Assembly (NCBI GenBank): GCA_964534385.1
Contig: CAZHOA010000001.1
Span: 1-25,214 of the forward strand
Direction: 5' to 3'
Length of the DNA stretch: 25,214 nucleotides
Origin: an uncultured Candidatus Saccharibacteria bacterium
Lineage (GTDB): Bacteria > Patescibacteriota > Minisyncoccia > 2-02-FULL-40-12 > IGHO2-01-FULL-4-A
Shown here: piece after piece, positions 9,575 through 13,945 of the stretch
Layout: every line of letters begins with the position of its first letter
How positions within the stretch are numbered: position 1 is the first letter of the stretch
Program-made: the position numbers and the translations under genes
Notes under the pieces: generated by a model
Seen by the model: only the letters and a program-made list of their open reading frames with translations
What the model was told of the DNA's origin: nothing
The model's database searches: none

Positions 9575-11416
9575 TTAGCGCTCTCGACGATCGATATCAT
9601 CATCGTCATCTTTTGGACGTGTTGGTTCGTTAATGACGTTCTTTAGCATCTGACGCAAGGAGTCGGTGTCGACTTTGGCTTGCGGCTTGTTTTGAGATGG
9701 CTGAGAAGATCGTTTGAATGGTTGTGGCTCGCGTTGTGCAAGAGAATGTAACGACATTGGCTGTGATGGCCTGGGCCTGTCATTTTCTGGTCGCGCATTG
9801 TCTGCTCTAGGAGGCATGGGCATGGTCTGTCGTTGAGGAGTATCCACTGGACGCCGAGGTGGTGCCGGCGGTAATGGTCGTGCAGGTCGATCAGATTGTG
9901 AACGCTCACCGTCGCGATTGTCACGCTCACGATACGGCCGAGTATCCTGATAATCCTGATCTGGATAGGGGGCTCGAGCGGGACGATTAGTGTAACTGCC
10001 TTGGCTCGACGTTGGTCGTCGTGGACGATCTGACGGGTAATCTCGGGATTCGCGTTGAGGTTTTCTGAAATCATCCTGCGGACTACCTCCTGGGGTACTA
10101 CTAGCGAACATACCACTCCATTCGGCAATTTCCTGTTCGACTTGGGCGCGTGGTTTGGCGAACTGTTGTCGTGAATTTTCGATCACTTGAGCTTTGGTAA
10201 CCGGAGAATCGTCTGTGTGTATCGGTGCCAAGGTACCGGCTGAAAAAGGACGGGACGACAGGCCATCGATCATCAGCTTGAGATAGATAGAGCGATTGGG
10301 CAAATTAACCAAATCTTCCATGACCAGATCCGGCGCATATTGTTTTTCGAGAAATTCTGCATCCGGTGCGCCGACGCGAAACGTAATCATAGTACCGACG
10401 TTGCCAAAGATGGCATCGCGTACCTTGGTGCTCGTATCGGTCACTAGTTGACCAATAAATTGATGAGAGATTACCAAACCGAGACGATATTTGCGGGCCT
10501 CCGACAGAACCGACGCGAATGAATCGGTGGCAAAATTCTGGAATTCGTCGACAAAAAGCAGGAAAGGTTTGCGGTCGGCAATGTTGGCAATCTTAACGCG
10601 CTCCATAGCGGTCAACTGGATCTTGGTAATGAGCATGGCGCCGATCAAGGCGGAGTTGTCTTCGCCGATGCGGCCCTTCGATACGTTAGCCAGAAGAATC
10701 TTGCTTTCATTCATCACGCGCTCAATATCCAGAGTGCTCTTCGGCTGTCCGACAATATTGCGAATCAAATGTGTCGACAAAAATTGACCGACTTTGTTTT
10801 GAATCGGCGCGATGGCCTCGGTGCGGAATTTATCCTGGTACTGTTCATATTCGGTAACCCAGTAGGCTTTGACGACCGGGTCCTGAATATTATCGACGAT
10901 CTCGCGGCGAAATTGTTTATCCACCAATAATCGAGGAATACCAAGTAATGTCATATTCGGTGTGTCCAACAAAGCCAAGACAGCATTACTTAAAATATAT
11001 TCCATTCTCGATGACCAGACATTGGCCCAGATTTTGGTAAAGATAGCCATGAGGCCGGACGATACGAGATGCTTGTACTCGGTACTCTTGACTTCGAGCA
11101 CATTAAAACCAACCGGATATTCGGTATCGGCGGGATTGAAATAGATGACGTCTTTTTGGCGTTCAGGCGGAATGTGTTCTAATAGATCTTCGACGAATTC
11201 GCCGTGCGGATCAACGAGCGCCAAACCGCGCCCGGCTCGAATGTCCTGGATAGCCAGGTTCTTGAGTAGAGTCGATTTACCGGTACCTGTCTGGCCGATC
11301 ACGTACATGTGTTGGAAGCGGTCTTCGTTGTCGCTCCGAATGCCGAAAACCTGTTCTTTGCCGCGAAAATTAGTCTTGCCAAAATAGACAATAGAATTAT
11401 CTTTTGGGACATCCAT
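9575..11416 (-). CDS. VirB4/VirD4/TraD-HerA-like P-loop ATPase (type IV secretory conjugative DNA-transfer family) with a long low-complexity C-terminal tail
   Basis: HMYVIGQTGTGKST (Walker A), LVDPHGE, LFVDEFQNF (Walker B), SEARKYRLGL..SHQ, IFGNVGT...FRVG..DAE. Confidence 0.85.
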   Translation of the reverse strand: MDVPKDNSIVYFGKTNFRGKEQVFGIRSDNEDRFQHMYVIGQTGTGKSTLLKNLAIQDIRAGRGLALVDPHGEFVEDLLEHIPPERQKDVIYFNPADTEYPVGFNVLEVKSTEYKHLVSSGLMAIFTKIWANVWSSRMEYILSNAVLALLDTPNMTLLGIPRLLVDKQFRREIVDNIQDPVVKAYWVTEYEQYQDKFRTEAIAPIQNKVGQFLSTHLIRNIVGQPKSTLDIERVMNESKILLANVSKGRIGEDNSALIGAMLITKIQLTAMERVKIANIADRKPFLLFVDEFQNFATDSFASVLSEARKYRLGLVISHQFIGQLVTDTSTKVRDAIFGNVGTMITFRVGAPDAEFLEKQYAPDLVMEDLVNLPNRSIYLKLMIDGLSSRPFSAGTLAPIHTDDSPVTKAQVIENSRQQFAKPRAQVEQEIAEWSGMFASSTPGGSPQDDFRKPQRESRDYPSDRPRRPTSSQGSYTNRPARAPYPDQDYQDTRPYRERDNRDGERSQSDRPARPLPPAPPRRPVDTPQRQTMPMPPRADNARPENDRPRPSQPMSLHSLAQREPQPFKRSSQPSQNKPQAKVDTDSLRQMLKNVINEPTRPKDDDDDIDRRER

Positions 11417-12082: not shown

Positions 12083-12110
12083 TTGAACTTTTGCCTATAT
12101 GTGGTAGTAT
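12083..12110 (+). promoter_or_regulatory. Putative tRNA promoter TTGAAC-N16-TAGTAT
   Basis: The boxes lie 13 nt upstream of the tRNA 5' end. Confidence 0.5.
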
Positions 12111-12123
12111 AACGATGAGAATA

Positions 12124-12196
12124 CCGCCCTTAGCTCAGTTGGTAGAGCAGCTCCCTTTTAAGGAGATGGTCGTAGGTTCGAATCCTACAGGGCGGA
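12124..12196 (+). tRNA. tRNA-Lys (anticodon TTT), CCA not encoded
   Basis: Acceptor stem CCGCCCT/AGGGCGG, D arm GCTC-AGTTGGTA-GAGC, anticodon loop CT-TTT-AA, T arm GTAGG-TTCGAAT-CCTAC. Confidence 0.95.
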
Positions 12197-12520
12197 CAGC
12201 GAAGCTGTACGACCTGAGTAAGCCAATTTTTTGGCTTACGTTAGGATTCGAAGGGCGGAACGATGATATGATCACCAGATCATATCCGTGAGCCCGGTCT
12301 GAACCCAGCGTGAGCGACGGCGAACGCTGAGGTGAAGAAGAATCCTACAGGGCGGACAGCGAAGCTGTACGACCTGAGTAAGCCAATTTTTTGGCTTACG
12401 TTAGGATTCGAAGGGCGGAACGATGATATGATCACCAGATCATATCCGTGAGCCCGGTCTGAACCCAGCGTGAGCGACGGCGAACGCTGAGGTGAAGAAG
12501 AATCCTACAGGGCGGACAGC
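12181..12520 (+). repeat. Two identical 160-bp tandem units plus a third 20-bp tRNA 3' fragment
   Basis: 12181-12340 equals 12341-12500 base for base; aatcctacagggcggacagc occurs at 12181, 12341 and 12501. Confidence 0.95.
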
Positions 12521-12680
12521 TAGATAATACACAACAGAACTGGAAGCTCCTTCAAGATAAAGAAGCGGCTTTGCTGGGTCTAACATAAGTTTTTGATTGA
12601 ATAGCGTGGGGTTCGAACCCAATATCCATAGCCTTGCATTTATACTTCGAAGTATGCTATATTTACCCTGTGCTTGTGGG
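12521..12680 (-). pseudogene. Probable C-terminal remnant of a large serine recombinase reading into the tRNA att site
   Basis: Minus-strand frame ...LWILGSNPTLFNQKLMLDPAKPLL...AVRPVGF. It resembles the C-terminus of CPR recombinases (recalled) and runs into the complement of the tRNA 3' end. No catalytic domain is present. Confidence 0.4.
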
Positions 12681-12722
12681 GCGTCAGCCCTATTCGGCTC
12701 ATACTTAAGCCGAAGGCAGGCA

Positions 12723-12757
12723 TAACAAAAAATCCGCATTTGGCGGATTTTTTGTTA
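12723..12757. terminator. Bidirectional intrinsic terminator
   Basis: taacaaaaaatccgc-atttg-gcggattttttgtta, 15-bp perfect stem overlapping the stop of 12755-13234. Confidence 0.85.
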
Positions 12758-13234
12758 GTCTTCGTCTGGGTTGCCTTTCATTCTTGAAAGTAACTTTATA
12801 TCCCTATATTGGTTAGTGGTCCAATTTGGTATCACACTCCAGAAATGTTTTATTCCATTATCTCCAACTTGTCTGACAATAACCTTGATTTTAAAACCAT
12901 CCATTATAGCTATTAAGCCCCAATATTTTACGACTTTGGACTCCCGGACCTTTTTCTTGAATTTCTTTACAGTAAATTCTTTTACACTTTCTTCATACTC
13001 TTGAAAGGTTGTTGTTCTAATAACCAAATCCTTTGCCTTCGGTAGAAGTTTCAACTTGGTAATCTGCCTTTCCCTGTCACGCTCGGTGCGGTCAGATTTG
13101 TAAATCAAATGATTAAATCCATCAGCACTGAAAAATACAAAATCGTTAAAGGCGGGGCATAAAACCTTGCCTATCTTTTTATAAAAGTTTTCTGAATCTT
13201 GTCTAATTTTTTCGTAATTCGATGTATCTTGCAT
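12755..13234 (-). CDS. Basic protein with probable PBECR/RelE-like (barnase-EndoU-colicin-RelE) nuclease fold
   Basis: Pattern Y.KIG.V.CPA....V.F...GFNHL..K...R....Q..KL.LL..A..., V.VIV..VG......FWSVIP; family recalled from CPR genomes. Confidence 0.45.
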   Translation of the reverse strand: MQDTSNYEKIRQDSENFYKKIGKVLCPAFNDFVFFSADGFNHLIYKSDRTERDRERQITKLKLLPKAKDLVIRTTTFQEYEESVKEFTVKKFKKKVRESKVVKYWGLIAIMDGFKIKVIVRQVGDNGIKHFWSVIPNWTTNQYRDIKLLSRMKGNPDED

Positions 13235-13767: not shown

Positions 13768-13945
13768 GAATCTACCATCCTTTGTATTGAATTTTTGAAA
13801 ACAGTTCGACTGCTTACATTAAACACCATTTTTTTTATAGTCAAATCTGGCGATTTCGTATCGAATTACGTCGGGGCGGACATCTAGATACTGCAAAGTT
13901 TTGATTGAAGAGACGTAGCAGCGCTCGATATGATATACTACTGCT

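What the first reader, a model, noticed from the sequence alone, without database searches (positions are those of the whole stretch)
12242..12259. The element carries an antisense copy of the tRNA T-loop fused to a sense acceptor-stem copy
Seen: taggattcgaa (12242-12252; again 12402-12412) is the exact reverse complement of tRNA bases ttcgaatccta (12177-12187). It is immediately followed by gggcgga, which matches the 3' acceptor strand. Inference: the pre-tRNA trailer can refold onto the T arm and acceptor (processing control), or the element encodes its own target-recognition sequence, which would be an unusual guide-like feature.
Basis: partly seen in the sequence, partly recalled or inferred. 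Interest (0 to 1): 0.6.

Follow-up and report, generated by a model that had tools for sequence, protein, structure and literature searches.

The report
Host-matched arm of tRNA-trailer element
The antisense copy of the tRNA T-loop is real: it is the host-matched closing arm of a small, protein-less, folded element that sits behind tRNA genes throughout ultra-small (Patescibacteria) bacteria and has the same design as the unexplained E. coli RtT repeats. The adjacent "acceptor copy" is a coincidence.

Summary
The sequence is as described. TAGGATTCGAA (12242-12252, again at 12402-12412) is the exact reverse complement of tRNA-Lys(UUU) bases 12177-12187, and GGGCGGA follows it.

It belongs to a ~140-nt ORF-less structured element that is present twice as a perfect 160-bp tandem. 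Each unit ends in a 21-nt copy of the tRNA 3' end.

A covariance model finds the family in 85 of 105 genomes of the order, in 59 of 151 sampled from the class, and in many named Patescibacteria MAGs. There are 1-19 copies per genome, behind nearly every kind of tRNA.

The antisense segment co-varies with the host tRNA:
- 6.6 of 9 Watson-Crick (WC) pairs against 4.6 of 9 when elements and tRNAs are permuted.
- In an independent set, 10.5 of 12 against 8.1 of 12.

It forms the closing helix of a three-helix fold with strong covariation support.

GGGCGGA is not an acceptor copy. It is the 5' strand of helix P2 and does not follow the host acceptor.

No Rfam family matches. E. coli RtT (RF00391) has the same layout, including an anti-T arm followed by GAGAA and a copied tRNA 3' end.

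My reading is an inserted, co-transcribed trailer element whose closing helix imitates a tRNA end. The mechanism is not proven.

This scan has already reported the same family on many other genomes.

The parts
12124..12197 (+). tRNA-Lys(UUU), the host gene. CCA is not encoded; C74 is at 12197.
   Evidence: ARAGORN. Rfam RF00005, 71.5 bits.
12177..12187 (+). T-loop plus the first four bases of the T-stem 3' strand of the tRNA. This is the sequence the antisense arm complements.
12180..12200 (+). First copy of the 21-nt tRNA 3'-end repeat GAATCCTACAGGGCGGACAGC. This copy lies within and just after the tRNA.
   Evidence: the repeat finder family D2.
12196..12215 (+). Linker. It holds the mini-hairpin acagc-gaa-gctgt and then cgacct, an imperfect complement of the acceptor 3' strand.
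   Evidence: Sequence. An acceptor complement of 6 nt or more is seen in only about 18% of family members, against 1.8% of permuted pairs.
12215..12350 (+). Element copy 1 (core matched by covariance model R1).
   Evidence: 131.8 bits, E 1.6e-37.
12218..12239 (+). Helix HP1 (gtaagcc-aatttttt-ggcttac).
   Evidence: All 9 pairs show compensatory changes (helix 1).
12242..12252 (+). Anti-T arm, the subject of the finding. 12242-12249 pairs with 12340-12347. GAA (12250-12252) complements T54-C56 of the real tRNA only.
12253..12295 (+). Helix P2. gggc (12253-12256) pairs with gccc (12292-12295), acg with cgt, and the apical hairpin is gatatgatc/gatcatatc.
   Evidence: (helices 4-8).
12298..12338 (+). 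Helix P3, with the conserved apical GAGCGACGGCGA.
   Evidence: (helices 9-11).
12340..12360 (+). Second copy of the tRNA 3'-end repeat. It is the 3' strand of the closing helix of copy 1.
12375..12510 (+). Element copy 2, 100% identical to copy 1. Its anti-T arm is at 12402-12412.
12500..12520 (+). Third copy of the tRNA 3'-end repeat. The different sequence that follows it begins at 12521.

Best explanation
**What it is.** 12242-12252 is the host-matched 'anti-T arm' of an RtT-like tRNA-trailer element.

**The element.** It is a ~140-nt protein-less insertion placed directly behind the tRNA, in the same orientation. It ends in a copy of tRNA positions 56/57 to 73/74.

**The fold.** On the tRNA-sense strand the element forms HP1 and then a junction that encloses helices P2 and P3. 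That junction is closed by the anti-T arm pairing with the T-loop/T-stem-3' part of the copied tRNA end.

**Why the arm matches its host.** Every copy's arm matches its own host tRNA because its pairing partner is a copy of that tRNA.

**The 'acceptor copy'.** The following GGGCGGA is the 5' strand of P2, not an acceptor copy.

**How it works (inferred, not shown).**
- The element is co-transcribed with the tRNA.
- The closing helix, followed by a free acceptor-3' strand and discriminator, imitates a tRNA 3' end.
- The tRNA 3'-end processing enzymes therefore cut after each copy. This would release the tRNA and unit-length structured RNAs. The annotated E. coli RttR RNA ends exactly at its copied CCA, which fits this picture.

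**How it got there.** By insertion. The native tRNA tail now lies behind the distal repeat.

**The tandem.** The two identical units arose recently, either by recombination between the 21-nt repeats or by a second insertion.
For: **Shown here**
1. Exact complementarity that is not chance.
2. A conserved fold:
   - RNAalifold on 8 homologs gives 33 of 41 pairs with compensatory changes.
   - On 85 distinct copies, 91.5% of cells are paired against 65.8% in shuffles.
   - 40 of 41 pairs show double changes.
   - The covariation score is 0.661 against 0.209, reached by 0 of 500 shuffles. Slid controls reach at most 0.085.
   - G-U pairs number 154 against 59 A-C, so the tRNA-sense strand is the folded one.
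3. The anti-T arm tracks the host. It gives 6.6-6.7 of 9 WC pairs against 4.6 of 9 permuted, and 10.5 of 12 against 8.1 of 12 in an independent phylum-wide set. Hosts include Lys, Val, Arg, Ser, Gly, Asp, Pro, Thr, Gln, Leu, Ile, Tyr, Glu, His, Ala, Trp, Cys, Met and Phe.
4. The P2 5' strand is independent of the host acceptor.
5. It is an insertion:
   - The repeat boundaries are sharp: C56 on the left in 54 of 70, and 1-3 nt past N73 on the right. The median length is 20 nt.
   - The distal repeat is followed by CCA as often as native genes are (24 of 120; native 6 of 26).
   - The sequence after the proximal copy rarely is (3 of 70).
   - Occupancy differs between close relatives. tRNA-Ala(CGC) is empty in G000 and filled in G001.
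6. E. coli RtT has the same layout. It reads GGGGAAGGAT-GAGAA ... GAGT-AATCCTTCCCCCACCACCA. Rfam's consensus closing helix pairs the anti-T arm with the copied end. The annotated RttR ends at the copied CCA.
7. No ORF or recurrent neighbouring gene was found.
Against:
- In about 20 of 122 copies a terminator-like hairpin lies between the tRNA and the element. That would reduce co-transcription.
- The GAA after the arm co-varies with T54-C56. These bases are present only in the real tRNA, not in the copied end. The cases are TGC to GCA in three orthologous tRNA-Tyr copies, TCC to GGA, and TCC to GGG. A pure intra-element closing helix does not explain this.
- Where the real tRNA and the distal copy differ, the arm fits the real tRNA better in 15 cases and the copy better in 8.
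- Nothing explains why P2-P3 is so strongly conserved in sequence.
- The alignments used for counting were fitted to the model's structure, which inflates the paired percentages.
Confidence: 0.45

Rival explanations
1. A DNA-level target-site mimic or guide. The element is a non-autonomous integrative or mobile element. Its single strand folds so that the anti-T arm plus the copied tRNA end imitate the T-loop half of the tRNA gene, in the manner of CTX-phage attP or integron attC. A recombinase acting in trans would exchange strands at C56|G57, and the GAA would test homology with the target's TTC. In this genome the only candidate recombinase is a Xer-type enzyme.
For: - The left repeat boundary is sharp at C56|G57.
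- GAA co-varies with T54-C56 of the real tRNA, which lies outside the copied segment.
- The arm fits the real tRNA better than a decayed distal copy in 15 cases against 8.
- Identical or diverged tandem arrays recur in independent genomes.
- A different ~200-nt element with its own antisense T-loop and repeat occupies the same tRNA-Tyr site in sister genomes.
- Copy number is patchy and variable.
- G000 encodes one tyrosine recombinase, Xer-like.
- The repeat geometry equals that of T-loop-class tRNA integration. This last point is from my own knowledge of Williams 2002, which I did not read here.
Against: - A jump to a new tRNA species would need the arm and the carried tRNA end to be rewritten together, and no mechanism for that is known.
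- Nearest-neighbour identity between copies is mostly 65-80%, so there are no recent bursts apart from the tandems.
- No element was found among 150 candidate loci from IMG/VR.
- G000 has no reverse transcriptase (RT), IS110, IS200 Y1 or TnpB-type gene, though the assembly is only 89% complete.
- No circular or single-stranded form has been observed.
- An earlier check within this scan put a similar bold reading at 1 in 100.
Confidence: 0.2
2. Processing control. In the precursor transcript the arm invades the real tRNA's T-arm while the distal copy completes the tRNA body. This gives two alternative folds that would gate or delay tRNA maturation.
For: - The MFE of tRNA plus one unit is exactly this domain-swapped fold: -111.6 kcal/mol, z = -8.4.
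- The arm is complementary to positions 54-65 of the real tRNA, including 54-56, which the distal copy lacks.
Against: - The tRNA is transcribed and can fold 45-100 nt before the arm exists, and tRNA folds are very stable. The MFE ignores kinetics and tertiary structure.
- Only 2 of the 26 assembled tRNA genes of this genome carry the element, and occupancy varies between relatives. It is therefore not a general maturation requirement.
- Terminator-like hairpins separate tRNA and element in a subset of copies.
Confidence: 0.12
3. An inert scar: leftover attL/attR debris from an integrase-carrying island or prophage that once sat in tRNA-Lys, with no structure or function of its own.
For: - Direct repeats of tRNA 3' ends are the classic footprint of integration.
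- A 1.35-kb island bounded by a further degenerate copy follows directly after the array.
- Displaced tRNA fragments from other islands are common upstream of family members.
Against: - A scar would not be conserved as a ~136-nt fold with compensatory changes in 40 of 41 pairs across a whole phylum-level group.
- A scar would not keep P2-P3 at about 90% identity between copies at different tRNAs.
Confidence: 0.03

Closest known systems
RtT RNA / RttR, the 178-bp repeats behind tyrT-tyrV of E. coli (Rfam RF00391)
   Same: - It sits directly behind a tRNA on the same strand and occurs as tandem units.
- Each unit ends in a copy of the tRNA's last ~19 nt.
- There is an internal segment antisense to the T-loop/T-stem 3' strand (GGGGAAGGAT), followed by GAGAA. 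The same GAGAA occurs in many Patescibacteria copies.
- The antisense arm and the copied end form the closing helix of Rfam's consensus.
- The function is unknown.
   Different: - RF00391 does not match the window or its genome at E up to 10 and up to 1 respectively.
- My model R1 scores the RtT units at only 7.9 bits.
- The interior topology differs: one branched domain in RtT, against HP1 plus P2 plus P3 here.
- The locus examined here lies behind tRNA-Tyr. Of 14 control genomes only E. coli matched. I did not survey other tRNAs or other enterobacteria.
- The family here serves almost every tRNA type across Patescibacteria.
- The RtT region overlaps a tiny annotated ORF (tpr). No ORF is present here.
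Integrative elements that recombine in the T-loop of tRNA/tmRNA genes (tyrosine-integrase islands, prophages; integrase-less CIME-type remnants)
   Same: - A direct repeat runs from the T-loop to just past the tRNA 3' end.
- The tRNA stays intact and the native tail is displaced downstream.
- Tandem arrays occur.
   Different: - The element is only ~140 nt, with no integrase or any other gene.
- It has a conserved single-strand fold and an antisense arm, which att sites of such elements are not known to need.
- One family serves about 20 different tRNA species.
Folded single-strand recombination sites (integron attC; CTX-phage attP used by XerCD)
   Same: - Length of 60-140 nt, with structure conserved more than sequence in the arms.
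- An inverted copy of the target core pairs with a direct copy.
- Array formation occurs.
- Dependence on a host recombinase is conceivable, and G000 has a single Xer-type enzyme.
   Different: - No recombination has been shown.
- The interior (P2-P3) is strongly conserved in sequence.
- The elements are dispersed at tRNA genes rather than next to an integrase platform or at dif.
EBS-IBS pairing of group II introns and guide loops of IS110 bridge RNAs
   Same: Each copy carries an internal segment complementary to the sequence flanking its own insertion site.
   Different: - No intron domains or Rfam intron match.
- No RT or IS110 recombinase in the genome.
- A 20-nt target duplication is present, which those elements do not make.

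Membership tests
RtT RNA (Rfam RF00391) | Match to the Rfam covariance model at or above its gathering score (45 bits) | tested here: not met
   No RF00391 match in window 12100-12760 at E up to 10, nor in the whole genome at E up to 1. The same model scores the E. coli units at 133-137 bits.
RtT RNA (Rfam RF00391) | Layout: behind a tRNA, unit ends in a copy of the tRNA 3' end, closing helix formed by an antisense T-arm segment with that copy, tandem units | tested here: met
   Window. E. coli.
RtT RNA (Rfam RF00391) | A processed RNA product with ends at the tRNA-like termini | not testable with these tools
For E. coli only the annotation of rttR was seen.
tRNA-targeting integrative element (T-loop class) | Direct repeat from the T-loop through the tRNA 3' end, flanking the inserted DNA | tested here: met
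   21-nt repeat at 12180, 12340 and 12500. Family-wide boundaries are C56 and N73 plus 1-3 nt.
tRNA-targeting integrative element (T-loop class) | An integrase gene inside the element | tested here: not met
   The 139-nt spacers hold no ORF. There is no recurrent neighbouring gene in 43 loci. The only tyrosine recombinase of G000 lies on another contig and is Xer-like.
MITE / IS200-IS605 miniature derivative (PATE) | A cognate transposase family in the genome (Y1 TnpA) and a short fixed target without long duplication | tested here: not met
   No PF01797 or PF07282 match in G000, which is 89% complete. The duplication is ~20 nt and differs by host tRNA.
IS110-type bridge-RNA element | DEDD/IS110 recombinase | tested here: not met
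   No PF01548 match in G000.
Retroelement (group II intron, retron, DGR template) | Reverse transcriptase in the genome; intron or msr RNA models | tested here: not met
   No PF00078 match in G000. No Rfam intron or retron match.
Folded single-strand att site (attC / CTX attP type) | Recombination of the folded strand by IntI or XerCD | not testable with these tools
   Only the anatomy is compatible: inverted plus direct copy of the target core, a strand-specific fold, and one Xer-type gene.
tRNA-like RNA (tmRNA tRNA-like domain, YrlA, viral TLS) | A T-loop motif and a paired acceptor stem | tested here: not met
   The T-loop is replaced by P2-P3. An acceptor complement of 6 nt or more is present in only about 18% of copies. 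ARAGORN and Rfam report no tmRNA or tRNA there.

The most novel reading that the evidence does not exclude
The anti-T arm, with its GAA, would be a rewritable address: a ~12-nt guide inside a conserved scaffold. It would direct insertion of a protein-less element behind whichever tRNA gene it matches, by base-pairing with the T-loop region of the gene as RNA or as folded single-stranded DNA. A host enzyme such as the single Xer-type recombinase would do the strand exchange at C56|G57. That would be a new class of guide-bearing mobile element, with E. coli RtT as a fossil relative.
Probability: 0.1. Interest if true: 0.85.

Novelty: new variant of a known kind. Interest (0 to 1): 0.5.

Why it matters
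If the reading holds, one small folded element has colonised the tails of nearly every kind of tRNA gene across a huge, poorly understood bacterial group. It would do so without harming the tRNA, and each copy carries an arm written to match its host.

It also links that family, by design, to the E. coli RtT repeats, whose function is still described as unknown. Comparative data from thousands of copies could then be brought to bear on that old puzzle. The matched arm gives a clear experimental handle: mutate the arm or the copied end, then read out RNA processing, tRNA levels, or excision and insertion.

For annotation, these units should not be called tRNA pseudogenes or att scars.

Tried and rejected
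- **Chance.** Rejected.
- **Known RNA family.** No Rfam family matches at gathering score or at E up to 10, apart from the tRNA itself.
- **'Sense acceptor copy'.** Tested across the family and rejected.
- **Universal acceptor-complement strand before HP1 (a full tRNA-like top half).** Only a minority of copies have it. In many of those it is the 3' arm of a terminator-like hairpin that includes the tRNA's own acceptor strand.
- **Cis-encoded protein.** No ORF in the element, and clustering the flanking ORFs of 43 loci gave only synteny genes.
- **Viral carriers.** Two IMG/VR pattern scans returned 150 loci, all chance matches by the covariance model. This tests only exact-motif carriers.
- **RT, IS110, IS200 Y1 and TnpB-type genes.** None found in G000.
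- **Lineages by tRNA type or by genome.** A nearest-neighbour analysis was uninformative: 86 of 122 nearest neighbours shared neither genome nor acceptor, and identities were 65-80%.
- **Empty-versus-filled site comparison.** For tRNA-Tyr in one genus, the 'empty' genomes turned out to hold a different element. For tRNA-Ala in G000 and G001, the flanks were not homologous.
- **Second DR-flanked locus, G000:C46.** It is an artefact of a run of N.
- **TIGR-Tas guide arrays of CPR bacteria.** Considered and dismissed. Those are 36-nt units with 9-nt spacers, a different anatomy.

Full report
**1. Observation**

Window 12124-12196/7 is tRNA-Lys(UUU) without an encoded CCA. TAGGATTCGAA at 12242-12252 and at 12402-12412 is the exact reverse complement of 12177-12187, which is the T-loop plus four bases of the T-stem 3' strand. 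GGGCGGA follows it, and this equals the acceptor 3' strand plus discriminator. The 18-mer occurs only at these two places. With up to 2 mismatches allowed, none of 100 shuffles produced a match.

The two occurrences exist because 12180-12520 is a perfect 160-bp tandem repeat of 2.1 units at 100% identity. It consists of three copies of the 21-mer GAATCCTACAGGGCGGACAGC, the tRNA 3' end from G57 onward, separated by two identical 139-nt spacers.

**2. What the spacer is**

Related small genomes (0.5-1 Mb) hold homologous spacers behind tRNAs. Earlier notes on this genome call it a groundwater Patescibacteria.

- Eight homologs behind tRNA-Lys, tRNA-Val and tRNA-Arg align. RNAalifold predicts HP1 and then a junction closed by the antisense segment paired with the downstream tRNA-end copy. 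The junction encloses helices P2 and P3. Of 41 pairs, 33 show compensatory changes.
- A covariance model (R1) finds the family in:
  - 24 of 26 genomes of the family;
  - 85 of 105 genomes of the order, which is 43 of 49 genera, with 1-19 copies each;
  - 59 of 151 genomes sampled from the class.
- A motif scan of species-representative genomes followed by R1 gave 96 true copies. These lie in MAGs labelled Kaiser-, Taylor-, Yanofsky-, Nomura-, Portnoy-, Uhr-, Magasanik-, Komeili-, Kuenen-, Gribaldo- and Woesebacteria and Paceibacterota. A few TPA records carry other labels, which I did not check.
- On 85 distinct copies the stored structure has 91.5% of cells paired, against 65.8% in shuffles. 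Compensatory changes occur in 40 of 41 pairs. The covariation score is 0.661 against 0.209, reached by 0 of 500 shuffles. Slid controls reach at most 0.085. The alignment was fitted to the model, which favours the structure.
- G-U pairs outnumber A-C mismatches 154 to 59, so the folded strand is the tRNA-sense strand, either as RNA or as that single DNA strand.
- Rfam has no matching family.

**3. The antisense arm**

In 122 copies from one family of genomes the element lies on the tRNA's strand, with a median of 14 nt between the tRNA end and the model start. Eighty-one copies have an ARAGORN tRNA within 100 nt. Ninety-six have a tRNA or an upstream copy of the tRNA end. Most of the rest follow displaced tRNA fragments or contig ends. 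The hosts cover nearly all isoacceptor types.

The arm matches its own host:
- Positions 57-65 give 6.6-6.7 of 9 Watson-Crick pairs, against 4.6 of 9 for permuted element-tRNA pairs.
- In the independent phylum-wide set, positions 54-65 of the real tRNA give 10.5 of 12 against 8.1 of 12, and many copies are 12 of 12.
- T-loop variants are mirrored: TTCGATT by AATCGAA, TTCGACT by AGTCGAA, TTCAAAT by ATTTGAA. The arm is therefore truly antisense and not a sense T-stem copy.
- A common variant has GAGAA in place of TCGAA, which would place tandem G-A opposite G57-A58.

**4. The 'acceptor copy'**

The 7-mer after GAA is CGCCGGA in 49 of 120 distinct copies. CGGCGGA, CAGCGGA and others follow in frequency. 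Its identity to the host's acceptor strand is 2.69 of 7, against 2.67 of 7 for permuted hosts. Lys-hosted copies carry CAGCGCA or CGCCGGA as well as GGGCGGA, and GGGCGGA also occurs at non-Lys hosts.

The first four bases pair with a partner about 40 nt downstream, 12253-12256 with 12292-12295 in the window, with compensatory changes CGCC/GGCG, GGGC/GCCC and CAGC/GCUG. The match to the acceptor in this window is therefore a coincidence.

**5. It is an insertion**

- The repeat is sharply bounded. Identity starts at C56 in 54 of 70 cases and ends 1-3 nt after the discriminator. The median length is 20 nt.
- The distal copy is followed by CCA in 24 of 120 cases, close to the 6 of 26 seen for tRNA genes of this genome. 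The proximal copy is followed by CCA in only 3 of 70.
- Distal copies are often followed by a terminator.
- So the distal copy plus its flank looks like the native tRNA tail, and the sequence after the proximal copy belongs to the element.
- Only tRNA-Lys(UUU) and tRNA-His(GUG) carry the element among the 26 tRNA genes assembled in this genome. The same-genus genome G001 has 7 copies, including one at tRNA-Ala(CGC), which is empty here.
- Tandem pairs, identical or diverged, recur in other genomes.
- In one genus tRNA-Tyr carries this element in three genomes and a different ~200-nt element in three others. That second element has its own antisense T-loop (GATTTGCA) and its own tRNA-end repeat.
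- The P2-P3 core stays about 90% identical between copies at different tRNAs, while HP1, the arm and the repeat differ.

**6. RNA level or DNA level?**

For an RNA-level role:
- The covariation is strand-specific and G-U pairs are tolerated.
- Distal copies that have drifted often keep wobble pairing with the arm.
- The orientation relative to the tRNA is fixed.
- E. coli offers an analogue (section 7).

For a DNA-level role as a target-site mimic or guide:
- The crossover-like boundary at C56|G57 is sharp.
- GAA co-varies with T54-C56, which only the real tRNA has. The cases are TGC to GCA at tRNA-Tyr, TCC to GGA, and TCC to GGG. That is three independent events and no counter-example among non-TTC hosts.
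- The arm fits the real tRNA better than the distal copy in 15 cases against 8.

The genome encodes one tyrosine recombinase, which is Xer-like. It has no RT, IS110, IS200 Y1 or TnpB-type gene, though the assembly is only 89% complete. No copy was found among 150 candidate loci of IMG/VR. Expression data could not be reached.

The thermodynamic fold of tRNA plus one unit is a domain-swapped structure. The arm pairs with the tRNA's own T-loop and the distal copy completes the tRNA body.

**7. Closest known**

A look-up of earlier notes of this scan showed that the same family has been reported many times on other Patescibacteria genomes. It also pointed to the E. coli RtT repeats. I tested that lead on E. 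coli K-12.

- Each RtT unit behind tyrT/tyrV reads GGGGAAGGAT-GAGAA ... GAGT-AATCCTTCCCCCACCACCA.
- Rfam's RF00391 consensus closes the RNA by pairing the antisense arm with the copied tRNA-Tyr end.
- The annotated RttR RNA ends exactly at the copied CCA.
- The layout is therefore the same, down to the GAGAA.
- RF00391 does not match the window or its genome, and R1 scores RtT at only 7.9 bits. The window's element is thus not a member of RF00391 by the model test, although it is built like one.
- A 2024 preprint (doi 10.1101/2024.07.17.603846) still describes RtT's mode of action as unknown and notes raised coverage of the region in circular-DNA-enriched libraries under stress.

**8. Verdict**

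- The antisense arm is a genuine, host-matched, family-wide feature.
- The acceptor copy is a coincidence.
- The best reading is an inserted, co-transcribed RtT-like trailer element whose closing helix imitates a tRNA end (confidence 0.45).
- A DNA-level guide or att-mimic role remains a serious rival (0.2).
- I found no published description of the Patescibacteria family in five full-text searches. The design, however, is that of a known though unexplained RNA, and this scan has already met the family repeatedly. I therefore rate it a new variant of a known kind, of moderate interest.

Noticed in passing
window 12505-12530 and 13862-13893: A fourth, degenerate copy of the tRNA-Lys 3' end (atcgaattacgtcggggcggacatctagata) lies 1.35 kb downstream. 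It shares the flank 'ctagata' with the sequence after the third repeat.
   Followed up: partly
window 9575-11416 (-): A 613-aa ORF just upstream of the tRNA matches type IV secretion coupling protein domains: TrwB_AAD_bind at 2.8e-13, plus TraG-D_C and T4SS-DNA_transf.
   Followed up: no
L169:1309-1508(-), L171:1303-1508(-), L175:1304-1508(-) (G017, G020, G023): A different ~200-nt structured element follows tRNA-Tyr in three genomes of one genus. It has its own antisense T-loop (gatttgca against the unusual T-loop tgcaaat) and ends in a copy of the tRNA end (ctaccgcccccac). Its 3' module recurs elsewhere, both behind tRNA-Pro (L180) and away from tRNAs (L181, L187).
   Followed up: partly
G000:C21 (minus strand), about 340 nt downstream of tRNA-Gly(CCC): A short ORF reads like a GIY-YIG nuclease by eye. 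I ran no domain search on it. It is bracketed by a repeat of the tRNA-Gly 3' end (ccccttacccgctcaaaa / ccccttacccggtcaaaa), so it may be a protein-coding cassette using the same kind of site.
   Followed up: no
G000, all 26 assembled tRNA genes: In 25 of 26 genes C follows the discriminator. CAA is the commonest triplet at positions 74-76 (8 genes), and only 6 genes encode CCA.
   Followed up: partly
L038:78-158 (G019) and L039 (- strand) 415-500 (G023): Partial tRNA-Lys copies carry a 31-nt insert of two mini-hairpins (tcagccNNNNggctga-tccgccNNNNggcgga) in the anticodon loop. This may be another small insertion type.
   Followed up: no
e.g. L147, L127, L146, L155 and G000:C21, just after the tRNA: Terminator-like hairpins behind tRNA genes often use the tRNA's own acceptor 3' strand as the base of their 5' arm.
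   Followed up: no
L052, L079, L113 and others, upstream of the element: Displaced tRNA 3' fragments that start in the anticodon loop are preceded by a shared motif (gatatagtccacMcc...tggattNgtg). This is probably the right end of an integrase-borne island family that targets the same tRNA genes.
   Followed up: no
window 12606-12620: A T-arm-like fragment, gtggggttcgaaccc, lies 90 nt after the array. ARAGORN calls no tRNA there.
   Followed up: no
G000:C46 (minus strand), 1088-1187: A run of N separates tRNA-Arg(UCU) from a second partial copy of it. This is a scaffold gap or a withheld stretch, not an element.
   Followed up: yes
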